Assembly: GCA_037144045.1 (NCBI GenBank)
Contig: JBAWXN010000001.1
Coordinates: 203,752 to 267,751, forward strand
Length of the DNA: 64,000 bases
Source: a bacterium
Lineage (GTDB): Bacteria; Patescibacteriota; Minisyncoccia; Phycocordibacterales; UBA1006
Reading direction: 5' to 3'
Within the stretch, counting starts at the first letter, position 1; each line of letters starts with the position of its first letter. The notes beneath the pieces are model-generated. The model did no database searches and was not told the DNA's origin. It saw only the letters and a program-made list of their open reading frames with translations. The position numbers and the translations under genes are program-made. Below, in pieces: positions 51,304 through 59,130 of this stretch.

Positions 51304-52212
51304 TTATTTACCTAAAAAAGTTTCCATCGCCTCATCAATGGTTTTGTATGTGAACTCAAACCCTGTTACTTGTAATTTCGCAGGTACGGCACGCGTGCTT
51401 GCAAGTACTGCTTTGGCAAATTCGCCCAGAATAATGCGCAATGCAAATGCTGGAATAATCAAGAACGCCGGACGATGGAGTGCCTTACCAAGTGATTTTG
51501 TAAACACCCGATTCGTCACGGGTTCTGGTGCGGTCGCATTCACAGGACCTGACAATTGCATATTCGTAATCGCCTCGTAGTAAATTGCAATGAGATCATC
51601 AATATGAATCCATGAAAACCATTGATTTCCATTTCCCAATCTTCCTCCTAATCCCCACTTGAATATCGGAAGTAGTTTTGACATCATGCCACCTCCGGGA
51701 CCCAGCACGATTGCCGTACGCACAGAAACCCGACGAATTCCGAGTTCCTCAATTTTTTGTGCAGCAGATTCCCACGCAACACAAACATCTGATAGAAAAT
51801 CCGTTCCCGTTGTTGGCGTAGATGCAGATTCGTCGAGTATCCGATCAGTTTGATCGCCATAATACCCAACTGCTGATGCACACACGAATACAGTCGGTTT
51901 GATTTCAGATGCACGGCACGCGTCCACAATGGACGCCGTGCTTTTCGTACGACTCTCCATGATCTGTTGTTTATATTCTGCCGTCCACCGTTCGTAAATA
52001 CTCACGCCTGCCAAATGCACAATAGCATTGTGATTTGCGATACTTGTCGGTGCAGCATCGGTTACCAAATTCGCAGAAACAAATTGCATACGTTCATGCG
52101 AAAACCGCGGCGCTACGCGATCGTAAATAGTTACCTGATGACCAGCATCTAATAATTTATGTGCAAGGGCCGTTCCGATAAATCCGGAACCGCCAGTAAT
52201 AGCAATGTTCAT
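51304..52212 (-). CDS. NAD-dependent epimerase/dehydratase family protein of the YfcH type (TIGR01777, C-terminal DUF1731)
   Basis: MNIAITGGSGFIGTALAHKLLDAGHQVTIYDR. C-terminal region consistent with DUF1731. Confidence 0.75.
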   Translation of the reverse strand: MNIAITGGSGFIGTALAHKLLDAGHQVTIYDRVAPRFSHERMQFVSANLVTDAAPTSIANHNAIVHLAGVSIYERWTAEYKQQIMESRTKSTASIVDACRASEIKPTVFVCASAVGYYGDQTDRILDESASTPTTGTDFLSDVCVAWESAAQKIEELGIRRVSVRTAIVLGPGGGMMSKLLPIFKWGLGGRLGNGNQWFSWIHIDDLIAIYYEAITNMQLSGPVNATAPEPVTNRVFTKSLGKALHRPAFLIIPAFALRIILGEFAKAVLASTRAVPAKLQVTGFEFTYKTIDEAMETFLGK

Positions 52213-52264
52213 GAAAATAGTATATCAGAAAATCGTTCCTTGTTTTGATATTTCAACAATGTGA

Positions 52265-52681
52265 TTAAAATGCTTTTCTATACTTTGCTGTCTTCTGTGC
52301 AATCTTGGCCGGCTGTTTTACCCACTGAGCCCCCTTTTTAGTTCCAAGGTTTTTTGCACGATCCGTTGCAATTTTTTCACCGACGGTTAGATGTTCGCGA
52401 GCTTGTTTCGGTAAATAGCGACTATGATTTGGTTCGGCAACATAGCCCCAGTCCTCCTTGGTCCATTTCACTAAACTATTCCGATCCGTTTTCTTGCCCA
52501 CATACCCACCACCGCGCTCTTTGTATAATTTCACAGCATACTGCATCGCGCGCGCAGAAAATTTTCCCATCTTCTCGACAGCTTCCTGTTTGCAATAGCC
52601 CCACAAGGGTTCGTTATCGCGCTCTGCTGTTTTACCAGAAGTTTTCTTTGCAGTAACTTTTTTTCCTGTGGGTTTGTTCAT
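52265..52681 (-). CDS. Hypothetical basic protein
   Basis: 138 aa. WGYCKQEAVEKMGKFSARAMQYAVKLYKERGGGYVGKKTDRNSLVKWTKEDWGY. Lys-rich termini. GC higher than the genome background. Confidence 0.45.
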   Translation of the reverse strand: MNKPTGKKVTAKKTSGKTAERDNEPLWGYCKQEAVEKMGKFSARAMQYAVKLYKERGGGYVGKKTDRNSLVKWTKEDWGYVAEPNHSRYLPKQAREHLTVGEKIATDRAKNLGTKKGAQWVKQPAKIAQKTAKYRKAF

Positions 52682-53815: not shown

Positions 53816-53965
53816 GAGGATTATTATATCATCTGATTTTTTAATCTTGCAAGGTATGGGTGTTTTGTGTAACCAAGCATCATCCTTGCCCACTAAAATA
53901 GAGCCTGCTATACTAGAAGTACAAATGTCCTTCGGGATTTCTCCCTTTACCGAGAGGGAACAAAG

Positions 53966-54000
53966 CAAAAACTCACAGAATTGTTTCTGTGAGTTTTTGT
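53966..54000. terminator. Rho-independent terminator downstream of the DoxX-like gene
   Basis: aaaactcacagaa-ttgt-ttctgtgagtttt. 13-bp stem flanked by A- and T-runs. Confidence 0.6.
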
Positions 54001-54008
54001 TTAATGAG

Positions 54009-54392
54009 TTACATCGCGAGGTACGCTACCGCAACCGCCATCGCAAGCATTAACAATGCTGGCATCATGCGAATACATGCATCACGCACTTTGATGTGCA
54101 TAGACACCGCTCCTACCATGAGAACCGCAAGCACAGCTGCTGCAGGTAACACTACTACTGGAATCCAGAGTCCAATAACCAACAATACTGCAATAATCAT
54201 CTTTGCAGCACCAATTAAATACATGAACCATGTTGGTAATCCGTATGCACGAAATTCCTGTTCCATATTCGCAGCTCCCTTGCCTCGGTATTTTGTTGGT
54301 TTACGAAATCGCACAAGCCAAACATTGATGAGTCCGAGAGCAAGGATGATTTGTAATACATTTATAATGTACAGTTCTGTGATGAAATTCAT
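54009..54392 (-). CDS. DoxX-like small membrane protein
   Basis: 127 aa, 4 TM segments, GLPTWFMYLIGAAKMIIAVLLVIGLW. Confidence 0.5.
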   Translation of the reverse strand: MNFITELYIINVLQIILALGLINVWLVRFRKPTKYRGKGAANMEQEFRAYGLPTWFMYLIGAAKMIIAVLLVIGLWIPVVVLPAAAVLAVLMVGAVSMHIKVRDACIRMMPALLMLAMAVAVAYLAM

Positions 54393-54442
54393 AGATAAAA
54401 AATTAGATTACTATACTTATAGTGTATCACGACACCATCGTA

Positions 54443-54706
54443 TTACAGCGCACCTTCTGCGCGTAGTTTTCTCACCTTCTCCTCACGTCCCCTATTATAT
54501 TCCCCCGCTATTCCATCTGACCTAATCACGCGGTGACACGGAATTGCCGGAACATAGTTCTTTTTAAGTATCGAACCCACGGCCCGCGATGCACCAGGAC
54601 TCCCTGCTTGTGTTGCGACTTGTTGGTACGTCAAAACCGATCCTTTGGGGATTTTTCGGACGATGGAGAGGACTTTGAGAGTGAAGGGGGTCATGGAAGT
54701 GTGCAA
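54443..54706 (-). CDS. Minimal MGMT-fold protein (O6-alkylguanine-DNA alkyltransferase C-terminal domain only; active-site Cys retained)
   Basis: 87 aa. IVRKIPKGSVLTYQQVATQAGSPGASRAVGSILKKNYVPAIPCHRVIRSDG contains the PCHRV active-site motif. Confidence 0.65.
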   Translation of the reverse strand: MHTSMTPFTLKVLSIVRKIPKGSVLTYQQVATQAGSPGASRAVGSILKKNYVPAIPCHRVIRSDGIAGEYNRGREEKVRKLRAEGAL

Positions 54707-54759
54707 TGAATTCGTTGAGGATCAAGGGTTTTGTTTTGGAGTGGGTTGGGCATGATTAG

Positions 54760-56610
54760 TTAAATATGTAGTCTTTTATTAATTTCATCTACCAATTGAT
54801 CTAGCAGCTGATAATCATTAGATAAGGTAGTTCGTGTTGGCTTGAAATCATTTGAGATGTTCATTTTTAATTTTTCTAAAAACTCAATTGAAAATTTATT
54901 ATTTTGCTGTAAATATATTTTGATTTGATCAATCAATGGACTAGTTTCAATTAAGGAAAAGTTGAGTACGTCAGCTCCAAATTCTTTTTTATATAAAGTT
55001 TTAAACTTACTTTCAATAAAAGGTTTTCGAAGGAAGTCTTCAATTGTAGCCCCTGCTGAAATTTGTCCTATTAAATCCCGAATAGTGACGACATTATTTG
55101 TATTAAAAACTCCTCCAATACTGAGTATTTTGTCTCTATATCCAATTCCTTCCTTGTCATCGTCAGTAAGAACCATAACATCAATCTCGTCACTGTTTAA
55201 TTTTGTAGCAACTTGAACAATATTACTACCTGTTCCATTAGTAATTCCGAAATCAAAACTTTTTAAAGTAAAGATTTTTTGTAATATTATTTTATCGCTT
55301 GCCCCTTCAACTAAAATTCTGTATGGTGAAAACAGGTCACGATATACACTTAAACCAAACGCTATATCAAGTACCTCGTCACCAGTAATATCATCTGTCG
55401 GCCCGACCAGTATTTTTTCTGTTATAGCTGATTTATTTTTTTTAATTATAATATTTCGTTCTTTATTTTTTCTGTCAACGAGAAAAGGAGAATGTGTAGA
55501 TACAAACAAATAGTTAGTTTTACCAATTTCTAATAACTCATCTCGCAAGTCTCTAATTCCTGAAGGATGTAGATGTGTTTCTGGTTCGTCTATCAAGATA
55601 AGATTGTTCTTTTTTCCCATTTTTTTGGCTTCAATAGATAAGGATAGGATAAGAGAAATAAACTGCTTAAAACCTTCGCTGCGTGATGTCATTTTATGGT
55701 AATTGTGCTCATTGTTTTTACCGTCATCTTTTATAGACACTACAATTTTTTTAGTGTCTGAAATCTCTATGTCAAAATTAATATCATGATCCCAGACATT
55801 TTTTACATAATTTGTTGCATTGTCAGATAGTCTTCCCATCAGCTTTCTTCGCAAATTATCATTTGAAGTTTCATCGATTTTCTCCTTTATTTGCTTTGAT
55901 CCAATAAAGCCCGATAATGCAAATATGTTCCTCAGTGGAATATTAGAAGAAGGCTTTTCTCTGAATTCTGTTAAATCGACAGACCCTAGTAAGTATTTAT
56001 CGGAAGGTTTCCAAAAAGAAACTTGGGGCTCGAACTCTTTAATTGAATTAACAATTGCCTCATTAAAATTCTCTATAACAAAAGCCTCATCTACTGGACT
56101 ATATGTTTCATCAGCGTCCGGTTTCTTCTTAATATCAAAACTATCCACGGTCTTACTCTCCGTTCCCACTGTTATGGTTTTTTGTATTTTTTTAGCAACT
56201 AATCCCTTTTTAACATTATTAATATCATATTCGTAGGATTCAGAGAAAAACTTTGTATCTTTTTGAAGATATACATTTTTGCAAATATTCTTGATATTAA
56301 AATCAAGAATATTGTTATCGTCACCAATTTCCGCTCGCACAAAATCCAGCCACGACTCCTCTTTATCAAAATCAAGATAAAACCATAAATCAATAGGGTT
56401 GCCCTCCTCGTCTTTTTGGTTATGAAGAGAGTGGTAATCAAATTCTTCAGTAGGTGTATTAAGGTATGATATTGCATCAAGAATATTACTTTTTCCAGAC
56501 TCATTTACACCAAGAAATACTGTTGTGTAGCTTGGTCCATATTTTTTAATGTCGAGTTCAATTTTCTGAATTGATTTGTAATCCTCAATTATTATTTTTA
56601 TTAATTTCAT
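54760..56610 (-). CDS. OLD-family nuclease: N-terminal ABC-type ATPase (AAA_15/21-like) plus C-terminal TOPRIM domain
   Basis: Walker A GVNESGKSNILDAI. Signature-like TSRSEGFKQFISL. Walker B/H-loop LILIDEPETHLHP. TOPRIM Glu motif ILVEGASDKIIL and DxD motif VMVLTDDDKEG. The gene is extremely AT-rich, roughly 28-30% GC. Confidence 0.8.
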   Translation of the reverse strand: MKLIKIIIEDYKSIQKIELDIKKYGPSYTTVFLGVNESGKSNILDAISYLNTPTEEFDYHSLHNQKDEEGNPIDLWFYLDFDKEESWLDFVRAEIGDDNNILDFNIKNICKNVYLQKDTKFFSESYEYDINNVKKGLVAKKIQKTITVGTESKTVDSFDIKKKPDADETYSPVDEAFVIENFNEAIVNSIKEFEPQVSFWKPSDKYLLGSVDLTEFREKPSSNIPLRNIFALSGFIGSKQIKEKIDETSNDNLRRKLMGRLSDNATNYVKNVWDHDINFDIEISDTKKIVVSIKDDGKNNEHNYHKMTSRSEGFKQFISLILSLSIEAKKMGKKNNLILIDEPETHLHPSGIRDLRDELLEIGKTNYLFVSTHSPFLVDRKNKERNIIIKKNKSAITEKILVGPTDDITGDEVLDIAFGLSVYRDLFSPYRILVEGASDKIILQKIFTLKSFDFGITNGTGSNIVQVATKLNSDEIDVMVLTDDDKEGIGYRDKILSIGGVFNTNNVVTIRDLIGQISAGATIEDFLRKPFIESKFKTLYKKEFGADVLNFSLIETSPLIDQIKIYLQQNNKFSIEFLEKLKMNISNDFKPTRTTLSNDYQLLDQLVDEINKRLHI

Positions 56611-56640
56611 ATATATTTACTAAATATTACCCTATTGTGT

Positions 56641-57003
56641 TTAATTAATCTTTTCTAGAAAATTTCCAAGCGACCCTTTAATCAAATTCCTCAACGTCTC
56701 ATCACTAATATAAATATAAGCCCCCTTGATTCCTCTCGTAAGCAAGGTCTTATAAATATTGATAATATATCGTTTCAGCTCTTCAGGGTCACTTATTCCT
56801 CGACCACCATTGATATCCTTATATTTTTTCGGATCAATAACTAACTGTTTAGTTTCAAGATCGTAAGAAATCTCCGGACCAACGATTACGCCTACATAAT
56901 TCAAATCATATCCCTGAACTGTGTGAATACACCCAACCTCGTTTACTGAATTTGGTGAGTTTACCCAATCCTGAGCAACACTATTCCAAACCAGTTTCGT
57001 TTG
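56641..57003 (-). pseudogene. C-terminal fragment of a DUF2075-type (SF1 helicase-related) ATPase gene, N-terminally truncated
   Basis: The frame translates ...NEVGCIHTVQGYDLNYVGVIVGPEISYD..., which is the helicase motif VI-like T.QG plus the DUF2075 C-terminal signature. It continues upstream of the listed ORF and hits a stop at 57004-57006. There is no in-frame ATG at the listed start (codon 56902-56904 is TTG) and no N-terminal ATPase domain anywhere upstream. Confidence 0.55.
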
Positions 57004-57107
57004 TTACGGAAATTAACCACTCGTTTAGTGAGGTCTTTCATATCTGACATAAGTCCGTTATATCATGTTTTTCTTTATTTTTCCATGATATTTTATTTAT
57101 TGTATTT

Positions 57108-57407
57108 TTACGTTATCTTCACCCGTACCTTTACCTCATCCCCCGCCATCAACCCCTCCGCCTTGCGTACTTTGGCCTTGATACAAATCATGAGCGAGCG
57201 GTCTTTGACCAGCGGAAACAATGATGTATCCCATTGTGTCTTACCTATCTTAGCCGAAACCTTGATCATACCCTTGCCATATTTCGTGCGAATCGGTTCG
57301 AAATAGTCACGCGGAAGATGCACAAAATGCCACGTGCCCGCCGAAGAGGCGGGGCCCATGCCAGGCCATTTCCAGATGGTTGCCGTAAACGAAAACGTAG
57401 ATTTCAT
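57108..57407 (-). CDS. DUF1905-family small protein
   Basis: MKSTFSFTATIWKWPGMGPASSAGTWHFVHLPRDYFEPIRTKYGKGMIKVSAKIGKTQWDTSLFP...IKAKVRKAEGLMAGDEVKV. Higher GC than the neighbours. Start placed at the internal ATG. Confidence 0.55.
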   Translation of the reverse strand: MKSTFSFTATIWKWPGMGPASSAGTWHFVHLPRDYFEPIRTKYGKGMIKVSAKIGKTQWDTSLFPLVKDRSLMICIKAKVRKAEGLMAGDEVKVRVKIT

Positions 57408-57727
57408 ACTATTATTTATTATAACAAAAACCCCAATATGGGGTAATTGTTTTGAGTGATTGCTGTTGTTTTGAATTAAACCAGGTCGTATTACGTGAGC
57501 GGATTGCGTCCTTGAATAATACGAATCAAGAACATCACAATAGCAATAACAAGGAGGATGTGGATGAACCAACCAATAGAATAGATTCCAATGACTCCAA
57601 GGAGCCACAGGATGAGTAAGATAACACCAATAGTAACGAGCATAACAGTAATTGATTACGGTGGATAAGGCGACTTACTGAGTAAGTTCCTATCGGTACT
57701 ATTAAGCAATAGCAAAGGTACTATGTG

Positions 57728-58216
57728 TTATTTGAGGTAACTATCGAACCAAATCGCATGACACGTATATCCGTTGGGATTTTTCTGTAAATAATCCTGA
57801 TGGTATTCTTCAGCTTTCCAAAATTTGGTAAACGGCTCAAGCGTTGTCACCACAGGTCCCGGCCAACGTTTTGAATCATTTACGATCTTAATGAAGTCTT
57901 CTGCTTGTTTCTTTTCAGATTCGTCTTGGTAAAAAATAGCGGATCGATAGGAAGTTCCGATATCATTTCCCTGCTGATTAAGCGTTGTAGGATTATGAAT
58001 TTGGAAGAAGAAATCAAGGATCGCCTGGTACGAAGTTTTCGTATCATCATATTCAATATCTAATGCTTCTGCATGGCCTGGATGATTATTATAATCTGGA
58101 TTTTCATTCGTCCCGCCGGTATATCCTGCATCTACATTAATAACTCCAGGTTGGGTTCTCAGTAATTCTTCAAGTCCCCAGAAGCATCCCCCGGCTAAAT
58201 AAGCGTGTTGTATCAT
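57728..58216 (-). CDS. msrA: Peptide methionine sulfoxide reductase MsrA
   Basis: [15 protein letters not shown] (GCFWG active site)...[12 protein letters not shown]. Confidence 0.9.
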
Positions 58217-58231
58217 CGTATTTCTTAATTA

Positions 58232-58435
58232 TTATTCAATCGGACAAGTATTTTTCCCAATTAATTGATAGAACAAACACCAACTCATGAGTGCTTGGAA
58301 GAAGCAAAAGAGTGCCACAATCCCAAGAATTATTTTTGTCCACAGCGGCATAACAACGAATACCATTAAGGCAACTAATATCATTCCTGTAAGTGCACGC
58401 ATTACTCGATCAAATGTTCCAATATTTTTTTTCAT
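58232..58435 (-). CDS. DUF2892 (YgaP-like) small membrane protein
   Basis: MKKNIGTFDRVMRALTGMILVAL is the DUF2892 N-terminal pattern. Start taken at the internal ATG. Confidence 0.55.
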   Translation of the reverse strand: MKKNIGTFDRVMRALTGMILVALMVFVVMPLWTKIILGIVALFCFFQALMSWCLFYQLIGKNTCPIE

Positions 58436-58464
58436 AGTGTTATAGATTATGTATAAATTAATAA

Positions 58465-58863
58465 TTACCAATTCATAACAGTCACTGTAATTTGAAGCAC
58501 TGTTGCAAAACATACCCAAGCCAAGTACGGAATATTTACATACGTTACCCACGGCACATATTTATAAATTGCCGCAAGTGCCCAGATCAGGGTTCCGAGC
58601 ACGAGCAGAATATCAATCATAGCAAGCAGATTATTCTGAAGTCCAAACTGAAGTGGAGTAAACAGTGCGTTAAAAATAATATTAAGGATAAACGGTAGTA
58701 CTACAATAAATGGAATTTTTTTAAGTACAAAGAGATATCCAACATACCCATACGAAGCTGCAATAATTGCATACAGTACCGTCCACACCGGACCAAAGAG
58801 CCAACCTGGCGGTGCCCATGACGGTTTGAGTAATGCGCTATACCAGGTGTAAGAAGTATTCAT
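58465..58863 (-). CDS. tspO: TspO/MBR tryptophan-rich sensory protein
   Basis: WYSALLKPSWAPPGWLFGPVWTVLYAIIAASYGY is the classic TspO N-terminal signature. 5 TM segments. Confidence 0.8.
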   Translation of the reverse strand: MNTSYTWYSALLKPSWAPPGWLFGPVWTVLYAIIAASYGYVGYLFVLKKIPFIVVLPFILNIIFNALFTPLQFGLQNNLLAMIDILLVLGTLIWALAAIYKYVPWVTYVNIPYLAWVCFATVLQITVTVMNW

Positions 58864-58905
58864 AAAAGAAGTATAGCACTATATCTTTTTTAAAGAAAAA
58901 CCAAC

Positions 58906-59130
58906 CTATTTAGGTCGGTTGATGGGTTTTTTACCGTTGGGTTTATGAGGTCGCCCGTTGGCTTCTTTGAATTTAGAAATCGTTGCAGAAAGCCTATCCG
59001 CAGAAAATATCGTTGATCGCCCCATAGTTTGTGCTTTAAGCAAGTCCCATGCTTTTCCCTTTTCGATACGCGCAGATTTACCTGGCATATTACGATGACG
59101 CCCCTTTTTATTAGACGTAGGGTTTTTCAT
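58906..59130 (-). CDS. Small basic hypothetical protein
   Basis: 74 aa, Lys/Arg-rich (KKGRHRNMPGKSARIEKGKAWDLLKAQ...). Its 5' end overlaps the PspC-domain gene stop by 4 nt. Confidence 0.35.
   Translation of the reverse strand: MKNPTSNKKGRHRNMPGKSARIEKGKAWDLLKAQTMGRSTIFSADRLSATISKFKEANGRPHKPNGKKPINRPK

What the first reader, a model, noticed from the sequence alone, without database searches (positions are those of the whole stretch)
54443..57407. AT-rich OLD-family (ATPase+TOPRIM) nuclease gene beside a decayed DUF2075 helicase-like gene: candidate defence islet, possibly the remnant of a two-gene system
The 616-aa protein at 54760-56610 has all the OLD-family hallmarks, as listed in the feature entry. 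Its GC (about 28-30%) is far below its neighbours, which suggests horizontal acquisition. Immediately upstream on the same strand is a 120-codon C-terminal fragment of a DUF2075 / SF1-helicase-related ATPase with no N-terminal part. Two-gene OLD systems (class 2 OLD, Gabija GajA/GajB) pair the OLD nuclease with a UvrD-like helicase. Here the helicase-like partner is a different family (DUF2075) and is decayed. That is consistent with either a degraded two-component system of a previously uncharacterised architecture or a class-1 OLD inserted into an older defence locus. The flanking small genes (minimal MGMT-fold, DUF1905, DoxX) are compositionally heterogeneous, as expected for an accessory island.
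Basis: partly seen in the sequence, partly recalled or inferred. Interest (0 to 1): 0.7.

Follow-up and report, generated by a model that had tools for sequence, protein, structure and literature searches.

The report
Solitary OLD nuclease beside dead genes
An intact, horizontally acquired OLD-family ATPase-nuclease (a known kind of anti-phage gene) sits next to the wreck of an unrelated two-gene module (MazG-like plus DUF2075 helicase-nuclease), so this is an ordinary small defence patch and not the remnant of a new OLD-plus-helicase system.

Summary
Window 54760-56610 (-) encodes an intact 616-aa OLD-family protein (ABC ATPase plus TOPRIM). It is the lowest-GC gene in the window (31.1% against 39.6%). 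Thirty nt upstream lies a roughly 115-codon C-terminal piece of a DUF2075 (PF09848) protein.

The proposed pairing does not hold. None of the roughly 31 loci with full-length OLD relatives has a DUF2075 gene nearby. None of 82 loci with close DUF2075 relatives has an OLD gene within about 5 kb. Instead, 66 of those 82 carry a MazG-like pyrophosphohydrolase gene directly upstream of a roughly 520-aa GIY-YIG-like/DUF2075 gene.

The window keeps the first 20 codons of that MazG-like gene (57050-56991), joined out of frame to the DUF2075 tail (56997-56641). A deletion of about 1.5 kb therefore destroyed a separate two-gene module.

About half of the OLD relatives lie inside or beside type I, II or III restriction-modification or BREX operons. 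No annotated neighbour is a UvrD-like helicase. No relative of those partner genes was found in the window.

A syntenic Parcubacteria-type relative lacks the whole 5.3-kb segment that holds the islet.

Verdict: a new member of the standalone (Class 1-type) OLD nucleases beside a pseudogene. Interest is modest.

The parts
54760..56610 (-). Intact OLD-family gene, 616 aa: N-terminal ABC ATPase (about aa 1-400) and C-terminal TOPRIM plus helical tail (about aa 426-616).
   Evidence: ORF. Pfam AAA_15, AAA_21 and OLD-like_TOPRIM. PADLOC Old at 1.1e-31. Full-length alignment (98-100% query coverage) to most of the 120 listed homologs at 47-61% identity. AF2 model with mean pLDDT 85.3. Best PDB fold match is the Thermus scotoductus OLD 6p74 at 4.1e-14.
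56488..56511 (-). Walker A / P-loop, G34-VNES-G39-K40-S41.
   Evidence: Read directly from the translation. N36, E37, K40 and S41 are invariant and G34, S38 and G39 nearly invariant in the 26-sequence family alignment A1.
55579..55602 (-). Walker B, L337-ILIDEPE-344, followed by HLHPS. The signature-like R310-S-E-G313 and the H-loop S371-T-H373-S lie nearby.
   Evidence: L337, I338, I340, D341, E342, P343, E344, H346-S350, R310, S311, E312, T372, H373 and S374 are invariant in A1.
55021..55335 (-). TOPRIM nuclease core: E435 (VEGASD), D439, D483-D484-D485 (DxD motif), E524-D525.
   Evidence: Pfam OLD-like_TOPRIM covers aa 426-485. All the listed acidic residues are invariant in A1. The GajA alignment runs through the LVEGASD motif.
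56611..56640 (-). 30-nt spacer between the DUF2075 remnant stop codon and the OLD start codon.
   Evidence: Coordinates. No promoter-like or terminator-like site was reported in it.
56641..56997 (-). C-terminal remnant (about 115 codons plus stop) of a GIY-YIG-like/DUF2075 (SLFN-g3 helicase, Nhi/AbiO-related) gene. This is a pseudogene that lacks about 400 N-terminal codons, including the P-loop.
   Evidence: PF09848 positions 251-354 of 354 at 1.4e-27. 73% identity to the C-terminus of the L082 homolog, starting at 'KLVWNS'. Full-length relatives are about 520 aa. Their N-terminal part hits PADLOC Nhi at 2.8e-13 and AbiO at 1.1e-12, with a weak Pfam GIY-YIG match.
56991..57050 (-). N-terminal remnant (20 codons, MSDMKDLTKRVVNFRNKRNW) of a MazG-like nucleotide pyrophosphohydrolase gene. 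It is joined out of frame to the DUF2075 tail. The deletion junction lies within AAACTGG (56997-56991). The remnant frame runs on to a stop codon at 56963-56961.
   Evidence: A profile HMM built from 60 MazG-like partner proteins gave one hit below the inclusion threshold in the six-frame translation of the whole window (E = 8.5e-4). That hit is here and aligns to profile positions 2-21. tblastn shows 10 of 17 identities to L082 MazG residues 9-25. Coordinates.
57108..57407 (-). DUF1905 gene, the upstream flank. It is not part of the OLD unit.
   Evidence: Pfam DUF1905 at 9.5e-23. Gene call in L001. GC 50.5%.
54443..54706 (-). Small MGMT-family gene (DNA_binding_1 domain, with a PCHRV cysteine motif), the downstream flank. 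It is not part of the OLD unit.
   Evidence: Pfam PF01035 at 2.6e-26. GC 51%.
53816..59126 (.). Lineage-specific variable segment that contains the islet. It lies between the conserved 363-aa gene and pspC.
   Evidence: The syntenic relative L170 keeps DUF1295 (79%), PspC (68%), the 363-aa protein (72%) and the PG-binding protein (62%) in the same order. It has a single unrelated gene in place of this segment.

Best explanation
The locus holds two unrelated accessory elements that lie side by side in a variable segment of a Parcubacteria-type genome.

(A) An intact, horizontally acquired, standalone OLD-family nuclease. By genetic context it is Class 1-type: ATPase and TOPRIM are fused, and there is no helicase, reverse-transcriptase or AriB partner. 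It belongs to a widespread clade of about 615-aa proteins that is often nested in restriction-modification (RM) or BREX operons. In this window it has no such partner.

By analogy with characterised OLD proteins, it most likely works as follows. The protein forms a homo-oligomer. Its ABC ATPase senses a phage-derived cue, plausibly an anti-restriction or anti-recombination factor. The ATPase then licenses a two-metal TOPRIM nuclease to nick or cut nucleic acid (DNA, or tRNA as for P2 Old). This stops phage replication and may cost the host cell. These mechanistic steps are inferred, not shown here.

(B) The upstream 'helicase fragment' is not a partner of OLD. It is what remains of a separate two-gene module: a MazG-like NTP pyrophosphohydrolase followed by a GIY-YIG-like/DUF2075 helicase-nuclease related to Nhi. 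An internal deletion of about 1.5 kb joined MazG codon 20 to roughly DUF2075 codon 410, out of frame. That module is dead.
For: OLD identity:
- Pfam and PADLOC hits.
- Walker A and B, H-loop, the TOPRIM glutamate, the DxD motif and the ED pair are all invariant across 26 family members, including this one.
- The AF2 model has pLDDT 85, and its best PDB fold hit is the Class 1 Thermus scotoductus OLD, followed by GajA.

Foreign and accessory:
- It is the lowest-GC ORF of 67, z = -3.07.
- Relatives at 35-56% identity are scattered across Patescibacteria, Proteobacteria, Bacteroidota, Melainabacteria, Spirochaetia and archaea.
- The syntenic relative L170 lacks the whole segment.

Context class:
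- No DUF2075 homolog in 79 genome loci.
- Neighbours of relatives are hsdM/hsdS/hsdR (8 loci), N6_N4 or EcoRI-type methyltransferases with Tsp45I, BsoBI or GmrSD-HNH nucleases, a type III mod-res pair, and BrxL.
- Other relatives lie among housekeeping genes: L003, L005, L017 and L173.
- No annotated neighbour is a UvrD-like helicase.
- No relative of those RM or BREX genes is found in the 64-kb window.

Fragment origin:
- 66 of 82 close DUF2075 relatives have a MazG-like gene directly upstream; most of the rest are cut by contig ends. None of the 82 has an OLD homolog.
- The MazG N-terminus is present in the window at exactly the expected place.
- The same gene pair occurs on Bacillus cereus-group megaplasmids.

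Mechanistic analogies come from the literature: class definitions (PMC10568477); the Vibrio cholerae Class 1 OLD nickase that defends alone (PMC12392090); P2 Old cutting tRNA (PMC12445682); ABC-ATPase/TOPRIM genes embedded in other defence systems and triggered by anti-defence proteins (bioRxiv 10.1101/2024.01.29.577857).
Against: - There are no expression or activity data. The trigger and the substrate of this OLD clade are unknown.
- The protein is 616 aa, longer than the Class 1 references (the TsOLD chain is 528 aa). By sequence alone GajA scores better than TsOLD in the PDB search (6e-9 against 1e-4). The class assignment therefore rests on gene context rather than on sequence.
- The 30-nt spacing and shared strand with the DUF2075 remnant are compatible with co-transcription, so a local, lineage-specific association cannot be strictly excluded.
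- Roughly half of the relatives are RM-linked, so the clade does not fit the review's description of Class 1 genes as 'not proximal to other defence genes'.
- No close strain-level relative was found, so the order of the events (OLD arrival and the deletion) is unknown.
Confidence: 0.8

Rival explanations
1. One reading: DUF2075 and OLD formed a two-component OLD system. It would be an analogue of Gabija with a DUF2075 helicase in place of GajB, and its helicase gene has since decayed.
For: The two genes share a strand and are separated by only 30 nt. Both families are defence-related: PADLOC Old for one and Nhi/AbiO for the other. Class 2 OLDs do pair with an SF1 helicase (PMC10568477).
Against: No DUF2075 homolog was found in the 79 loci fetched from genome contigs or in the neighbourhoods of the six closest OLD homologs. 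0 of 82 DUF2075-relative loci have an OLD within about 5 kb, while 66 of 82 have a MazG-like partner. The window itself keeps the N-terminus of that MazG-like partner. In Gabija the helicase lies downstream of gajA, whereas here the fragment lies upstream.
Confidence: 0.04
2. The OLD gene is the orphaned accessory of an RM-OLD cassette. This clade would need an adjacent methyltransferase or restriction system as guard or partner, so the solitary copy here is non-functional or on the way to decay.
For: Four of the six closest homolog neighbourhoods examined (59-60% identity) place the OLD gene directly after a methyltransferase gene or an RM gene pair. Eight more distant relatives are nested in type I RM operons. 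Two 86%-identical methyltransferases are each followed by an OLD gene in different surroundings. No RM relative is present in the window.
Against: The ORF is full length and keeps every family-invariant residue. Several orthologs are solitary among housekeeping genes: L003, L005, L017 and L173. Class 1 OLDs such as Vc OLD defend on their own (PMC12392090).
Confidence: 0.15
3. The protein has a housekeeping, non-defence role, as reported for the archaeal Class 5 OLD Cran1.
For: An OLD family member with a cell-cycle role exists (PMC12796447). Some orthologs sit among housekeeping genes.
Against: The gene is absent from the syntenic relative. It has the lowest GC in the window. Its distribution is patchy across phyla. 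It is often embedded in RM or BREX operons. It has no conserved operon partner of the kind Cran1 has.
Confidence: 0.03

Closest known systems
Class 1 OLD family nucleases (P2 Old, Thermus scotoductus OLD 6P74, Vibrio cholerae Vc OLD, E. coli YbjD)
   Same: [quoted passage not shown] There is no dedicated helicase, RT or AriB partner. The best PDB fold match is TsOLD. The best PADLOC model is Old. The catalytic acidic residues are conserved.
   Different: Sequence similarity is only remote (15% identity to TsOLD in the fold alignment). The protein is longer, at 616 aa. Members of its clade are often nested in RM or BREX operons, unlike the 'isolated gene' description of Class 1 (PMC10568477).
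Gabija GajA (Class 2 OLD)
   Same: The same two-domain architecture. It is the best sequence match among solved structures (6.3e-9) and a high-ranking fold match.
   Different: No GajB/UvrD-like helicase lies downstream, either here or in any annotated relative locus. PADLOC GajA models score far below the Old model.
ABC-ATPase effectors embedded in RM and other defence systems (PrrC in EcoprrI; HEC-04 ATPase-TOPRIM in Hma; PARIS)
   Same: Relatives of this gene are nested between hsdS and hsdR, between mod and res, after methyltransferase genes and after brxL. This is the layout described for second-line defences triggered by anti-restriction proteins (bioRxiv 10.1101/2024.01.29.577857).
   Different: The window copy is not embedded in anything. 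Its flanks are a pseudogene and an MGMT-family gene. No functional link to RM has been tested for this clade.
Nhi / AbiO-type DUF2075 helicase-nucleases
   Same: Full-length relatives of the fragment hit PADLOC Nhi (2.8e-13) and AbiO (1.1e-12) and carry PF09848. The helicase motifs of Nhi overlap DUF2075 (bioRxiv 10.1101/776245).
   Different: Relatives have a GIY-YIG-like N-terminus (a weak Pfam match plus a PADLOC PDC-S14 hit), and the Nhi preprint discusses a different nuclease group. Relatives also come with a MazG-like partner gene. In the window only the last roughly 115 codons survive.

Membership tests
OLD family (ABC ATPase + TOPRIM nuclease) | N-terminal ABC-type ATPase with Walker A, Walker B and H-loop | tested here: met
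   AAA_15 at 5.6e-25 and AAA_21 at 3.1e-18. GVNESGKS, LILIDEPE and STHS are present and invariant or nearly invariant in A1. Fold hits to TsOLD, GajA, Rad50 and SMC heads.
OLD family (ABC ATPase + TOPRIM nuclease) | C-terminal TOPRIM domain with the conserved glutamate and DxD acidic metal-binding residues | tested here: met
   PF20469 OLD-like_TOPRIM scores 24.4 bits against a cutoff of 23.2. E435, D439, D483-D485 and E524-D525 are invariant in 26 sequences.
OLD family (ABC ATPase + TOPRIM nuclease) | ATP hydrolysis and metal-dependent nuclease activity | not testable with these tools
   This needs purified protein.
Class 1 OLD | Standalone gene with no conserved UvrD/PcrA/Rep-like helicase, retron RT/ncRNA or AriB partner | tested here: met
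   The window neighbours are a DUF2075 pseudogene and an MGMT-family gene. Relatives' neighbours were annotated, and none is a UvrD-like helicase or an RT.
Class 1 OLD | Not found proximal to other defence genes (as worded in PMC10568477) | tested here: not met
   About half of the roughly 31 relative loci are inside or next to type I, II or III RM or BREX operons. The window copy lies next to a dead Nhi-like module.
Class 1 OLD | Shorter protein that lacks the Class 2 helical insert in TOPRIM | tested here: inconclusive
   At 616 aa it is longer than TsOLD (528 aa). The model shows a helical C-terminal region (aa 523-615), but I made no residue-level comparison with the Class 2 insert.
Class 2 OLD / Gabija | GajB (UvrD-like helicase) gene immediately downstream of the OLD gene | tested here: not met
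   The downstream gene is an 87-aa MGMT-family protein. No helicase partner was seen in the relatives.
Class 3 OLD (retron effector) | Adjacent reverse transcriptase and ncRNA | tested here: not met
   No RT among the immediate neighbours: DUF1905, the pseudogene, MGMT and DoxX. I made no ncRNA search. The RVT_1 gene in L083 lies about 4 kb away, with unrelated genes in between.
Class 4 OLD / PARIS | ATPase (AriA) and TOPRIM (AriB) encoded as separate genes | tested here: not met
   Both domains lie in one 616-aa ORF.
DUF2075 / Nhi-like helicase-nuclease (the upstream fragment) | P-loop helicase core with an N-terminal nuclease domain in one intact ORF | tested here: not met
   Only PF09848 positions 251-354 remain. 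Relatives are about 520 aa and carry the P-loop at about residue 180. The window copy is a pseudogene.
MazG-like NTP pyrophosphohydrolase (remnant) | Four-helix MazG-like domain (PF12643) | tested here: not met
   Only the 20 N-terminal residues that precede the Pfam domain survive.

The most novel reading that the evidence does not exclude
The roughly 615-aa clade to which this gene belongs could be a distinct, RM/BREX-associated class of OLD nucleases. Such a class would act as a second-line effector that fires when a phage disables restriction, in the manner of PrrC. The window copy would then be an orphan of such a cassette. A separate point concerns the destroyed neighbour. It belongs to a widely conserved pair, MazG-like gene plus GIY-YIG-like/DUF2075 gene. 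No paper in the searched library mentions both family names, so the pair may be an undescribed two-gene defence system.
Probability: 0.3. Interest if true: 0.55.

Novelty: new member of a known kind. Interest (0 to 1): 0.3.

Why it matters
For this window the result is mainly a correction. The apparent 'OLD plus decayed helicase' pair is a chance neighbourhood of one live and one dead accessory element. It should not be counted as a new OLD system architecture.

Two by-products may be worth a systematic survey.

(1) A specific OLD clade recurs inside type I, II and III RM and BREX operons across phyla. This bears on an open question raised in the 2023 review (PMC10568477): what standalone OLD proteins sense.

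(2) A MazG-like plus DUF2075 gene pair is conserved from Patescibacteria-type metagenome contigs to Bacillus megaplasmids. I found no literature on it.

The locus also shows that small-genome Parcubacteria-type bacteria gain and lose defence genes at a variable site.

Tried and rejected
- Flanking direct or inverted repeats that would mark a mobile cassette: only short AT-rich matches of the kind the tool warns are often chance.
- Promoter and terminator scan across 54300-57500: site counts were no higher than in shuffled sequence and nothing useful lay near the OLD start. Co-transcription with the remnant remains open.
- NCBIfam: no model reached its cutoff for the OLD protein. The best hits were partial ATPase matches to MAD3, a restriction-associated AAA ATPase, retron Eco8 and PtuA.
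- Phage and plasmid collections: no phage hit. Plasmid hits reached only about 27% identity over at most 59% of the OLD protein, so no vehicle was identified.
- Pfam on the 29-aa MazG remnant alone gave nothing. It needed a custom profile built from the partner genes.
- The word-indexed protein search with the 114-aa fragment listed only proteins under 200 aa, many from contigs under 2 kb. The real full-length relatives were recovered through contig look-ups and the metagenome scan.
- The closest relative of the flanking marker protein (86% identity, L168) lies on a contig that starts about 200 nt upstream of the marker gene, so it does not cover the islet side. The synteny argument therefore rests on the more distant L170.
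- L002 (Peribacteria, alternative genetic code) could not be interpreted with table 11 ORF calls.
Full report
**1. What is in the sequence**

On the minus strand, window 54760-56610 is a 616-codon ATG-initiated ORF. Pfam assigns it AAA_15 (5.6e-25), AAA_21 (3.1e-18) and OLD-like_TOPRIM (PF20469, 4.4e-5, above its cutoff). The best PADLOC model is 'Old' (1.1e-31), well ahead of the AriA, GajA, PtuA and HEC-01A models.

The translation carries these motifs:
- Walker A, GVNESGKS, at residues 34-41.
- A signature-like RSEG at 310-313.
- Walker B, LILIDEPE, at 337-344.
- An H-loop, STHS, at 371-374.
- TOPRIM acidic residues E435, D439, D483-D485 and E524-D525.

The catalytic residues K40, D341, E342, H373, E435, D439, D483-D485 and E524-D525 are invariant in an alignment of 26 family members that includes this protein. 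The other motif positions are invariant or nearly invariant.

An AlphaFold2 model built on that alignment is confident (mean pLDDT 85.3). Its best match among solved structures is the Class 1 OLD of Thermus scotoductus (6p74, E = 4.1e-14). GajA, the retron/Septu PtuA ATPases and Rad50/SMC heads follow. By sequence alone the order is GajA (6.3e-9) and then TsOLD (1.4e-4).

The protein is therefore an intact OLD-family ATPase-nuclease.

**2. Composition**

The gene is 31.1% GC against 39.6% for the window. It is the lowest of 67 non-overlapping ORFs, z = -3.07.

The neighbours differ in the opposite direction: MGMT 51%, DUF1905 50.5% and DoxX 43.5%.

**3. The upstream fragment**

The frame that ends at 56641 matches the last 104 positions of PF09848 (DUF2075, now named SLFN-g3_helicase) at 1.4e-27. 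It ends 30 nt before the OLD start codon.

While reading the other frames I saw 'MSDMKDLTKRVVNFRNKRNW' just upstream. It looked like the start of a MazG-like protein.

The contig look-ups for the two closest fragment homologs confirmed this lead. In L082, a 120-aa MazG-like gene (PF12643, 7.9e-15) directly precedes a DUF2075 gene. L081 has the same order, though its genes are broken into pieces.

A metagenome scan with an alignment of fragment homologs returned 80 more loci at 56-74% identity. Across all 82 loci:
- 79 show the N-terminal part of the DUF2075 gene upstream of the fragment-like region.
- 66 show a MazG-like gene directly upstream of that.
- Most of the loci without MazG are cut by a contig end. 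L133 and L165 are the exceptions.
- None contains an OLD homolog within the fetched flanks.

A profile built from 60 of these MazG-like partners was searched against the six-frame translation of the whole 64-kb window. It gave a single hit below the inclusion threshold (E = 8.5e-4). The hit lies at 57050-56991 and aligns to profile positions 2-21, which is the protein's N-terminus.

MazG homology ends at the TGG codon 56993-56991. DUF2075 homology ('KLVWNS') begins at 56997, in a different frame.

The simplest reading is one internal deletion of about 1.5 kb. It removed MazG codons from 21 onward and roughly the first 400 codons of DUF2075. The breakpoint lies inside AAACTGG. The module is dead. 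The 87-aa TTG ORF that gene callers report is a remnant.

Full-length relatives carry a weak GIY-YIG match at the N-terminus. They hit PADLOC Nhi (2.8e-13), AbiO (1.1e-12) and PDC-S14. The lost module was thus itself of a defence-like type. The helicase motifs of Nhi overlap DUF2075 (bioRxiv 10.1101/776245).

**4. Is DUF2075 a partner of this OLD?**

The test also fails from the OLD side. The protein has 996 homologs at E <= 1e-5. Most of the 120 best are about 600-630 aa and cover 98-100% of the query, at 47-61% identity.

A scan of one genome per species returned 79 loci. About 25 of these are full-length relatives at 35-56% identity. They come from Peribacteria, Falkowbacteria, Minisyncoccia, Gammaproteobacteria, Methylophilaceae, Sulfuricurvum, many Bacteroidales, Melainabacteria, Spirochaetia, Methanococcoides and Aenigmatarchaeota.

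tblastn with the fragment found nothing in any of these loci.

Clustering and Pfam annotation of the neighbours showed recurrent hsdM, hsdS and hsdR genes. In eight loci the OLD gene lies inside or beside a type I operon, for example between hsdS and hsdR in L015 and L016. In L010 it follows brxL.

The six closest homologs whose contigs I could inspect (59-60% identity) gave these layouts:
- mod - OLD - res, a type III system (L083).
- A 407-aa N6_N4 methyltransferase followed by OLD (L084/L085).
- Tsp45I, then an 86%-identical methyltransferase, then OLD, in different surroundings (L086/L087).
- An EcoRI-like methylase, a GmrSD_N/HNH protein and then OLD (L171/L172).
- One contig with an unannotated 987-aa upstream gene.
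- One contig in a housekeeping context (L173).

Further relatives sit next to a methyltransferase plus BsoBI (L024), in a methyltransferase-containing island (L011), or two genes from a DpnI-like nuclease (L009). Others lie among housekeeping genes (L003, L005, L017).

No annotated neighbour is a UvrD-like helicase or a reverse transcriptase adjacent to the OLD gene. By the context-based scheme (PMC10568477; PMC12796447) this is Class 1-type. One caveat applies: the clade is often embedded in RM or BREX, which does not match the review's wording that Class 1 genes are not near other defence genes.

tblastn with ten RM and BREX proteins taken from these loci found nothing in the 64-kb window. 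No partner of the kinds seen beside its relatives is therefore present there.

**5. Genomic setting**

The exact protein occurs on one Logan contig and in an NCBI MAG labelled only 'bacterium'.

Homologs of the flanking 363-aa protein are named Pacebacteria, Paceibacterota, Kaiserbacteria or Parcubacteria group.

The relative L170 keeps DUF1761-DUF2177-DUF1295 ... PspC on one side. On the other side it keeps the 363-aa gene, the large PG-binding protein and VF530-YjdM-GIY-YIG-META-lipase. The shared proteins tested by tblastn are 60-79% identical. Between PspC and the 363-aa gene L170 has a single Cu-oxidase_4 gene.

In the window the same interval (53816-59126) holds a 74-aa ORF, TspO, a YgaP-like gene, MsrA, DUF1905, the MazG/DUF2075 wreck, OLD, MGMT and DoxX.

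The islet therefore lies in a lineage-specific variable segment. I found no flanking repeats, no informative promoter or terminator signal, and no close relative on sequenced phages or plasmids.

**6. How it most likely works**

This part is inferred. The conserved Walker and TOPRIM residues and the TsOLD-like fold predict an ATP-binding, probably oligomeric ABC ATPase that controls a two-metal TOPRIM nuclease.

Characterised standalone OLDs behave as follows:
- TsOLD and P2 Old cut DNA non-specifically in vitro.
- Vc OLD nicks DNA and defends on its own (PMC12392090).
- P2 Old cleaves the anticodon stem of tRNA-Thr after ATP hydrolysis (PMC12445682).

Half of this clade is nested in RM or BREX systems. 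This fits the idea that embedded ABC-ATPase effectors fire when phages disable the first-line system (bioRxiv 10.1101/2024.01.29.577857).

I rate 'active standalone anti-phage OLD nuclease' as the most likely function. The substrate and the trigger are unknown.

**7. Verdict**

This is a new member of a known kind. Interest is modest at 0.3. The more interesting leads are side products: the RM-embedded OLD clade and the conserved, apparently undescribed MazG-like plus DUF2075 pair. No paper in the searched library contains both of those family names. The pair also occurs on Bacillus cereus-group megaplasmids, where it is annotated as 'nucleotide pyrophosphohydrolase' plus 'DUF2075 domain-containing protein'.

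Noticed in passing
L082:574-2496; L089-L167 (for example L089:2008-3908); L175:2422-4581; remnant at window 56641-57050: There is a tightly linked two-gene module: a gene for a MazG-like NTP pyrophosphohydrolase of about 115 aa, followed within about 10 nt by a gene for a GIY-YIG-like/DUF2075 (Nhi/AbiO-related) protein of about 520 aa. It is present in 66 of 82 metagenome loci and on Bacillus cereus-group megaplasmids. No paper in the searched library contains both 'DUF2075' and 'MazG'. It is a candidate undescribed defence pair.
   Followed up: partly
L015, L016 (hsdS-OLD-hsdR); L018, L019 (OLD-hsdR); L004, L006, L007, L013; L083:3746-10554 (mod-OLD-res); L084-L087, L171-L172, L024 (methyltransferase or restriction-enzyme neighbours); L010:4517-7818 (brxL-OLD): The OLD clade of this gene is repeatedly nested inside or directly beside type I, II and III restriction-modification operons and a BREX locus, across distant phyla. 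Two 86%-identical methyltransferases are each followed by an OLD gene in different surroundings, so the pair may move as one cassette.
   Followed up: partly
window 53816-59126, compared with L170:7207-8000: This is a 5.3-kb lineage-specific segment between pspC and a conserved 363-aa gene. It is filled with small stress or repair-type genes (TspO, YgaP-like, MsrA, DUF1905, MGMT-family, DoxX) plus the defence islet. The syntenic relative has a single Cu-oxidase_4 gene there. The DUF5872 and epimerase genes at 51304-52681 gave no tblastn match in that relative's locus either.
   Followed up: partly
window 54443-54706 and 57108-57407: The MGMT-family and DUF1905 genes are about 51% GC in a 39.6% GC window. 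The extended DUF1905 ORF has a GC3 z-score of +3.3. They may also be foreign, from a source different from that of the AT-rich OLD gene.
   Followed up: no
L002:6001-7833: The Peribacteria ortholog (56% identity; its cluster representative P0016 is labelled 'gcode 4') breaks into several short ORFs under table 11. This is consistent with stop-codon reassignment in that lineage.
   Followed up: no
L024:5458-7869: In a Spirochaetia chromosome the longest ORF that contains the OLD homolog is 803 aa. It has an N-terminal extension of about 180 aa with no Pfam hit. A methyltransferase and a BsoBI-type endonuclease follow it. The extension may be real or may come from my longest-ORF start choice.
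   Followed up: no
L012:442-2755 and L014:1625-3938: In two Prevotella MAGs a conserved pair precedes the OLD ortholog: a 679-aa protein with a weak PHP-domain match (E = 5.5e-5, below the Pfam cutoff) and a P-loop-like GKT motif, followed by a 97-aa protein. This may be another accessory defence gene pair.
   Followed up: no
L081 (whole locus): The genes on this JGI contig are broken into many short ORFs, including rpoC, the MazG-like gene and the DUF2075 gene. That points to an error-rich assembly rather than real pseudogenes. Many of the short 'DUF2075 fragments' in the protein database come from contigs under 2 kb and may likewise be assembly or contig-end artefacts.
   Followed up: partly
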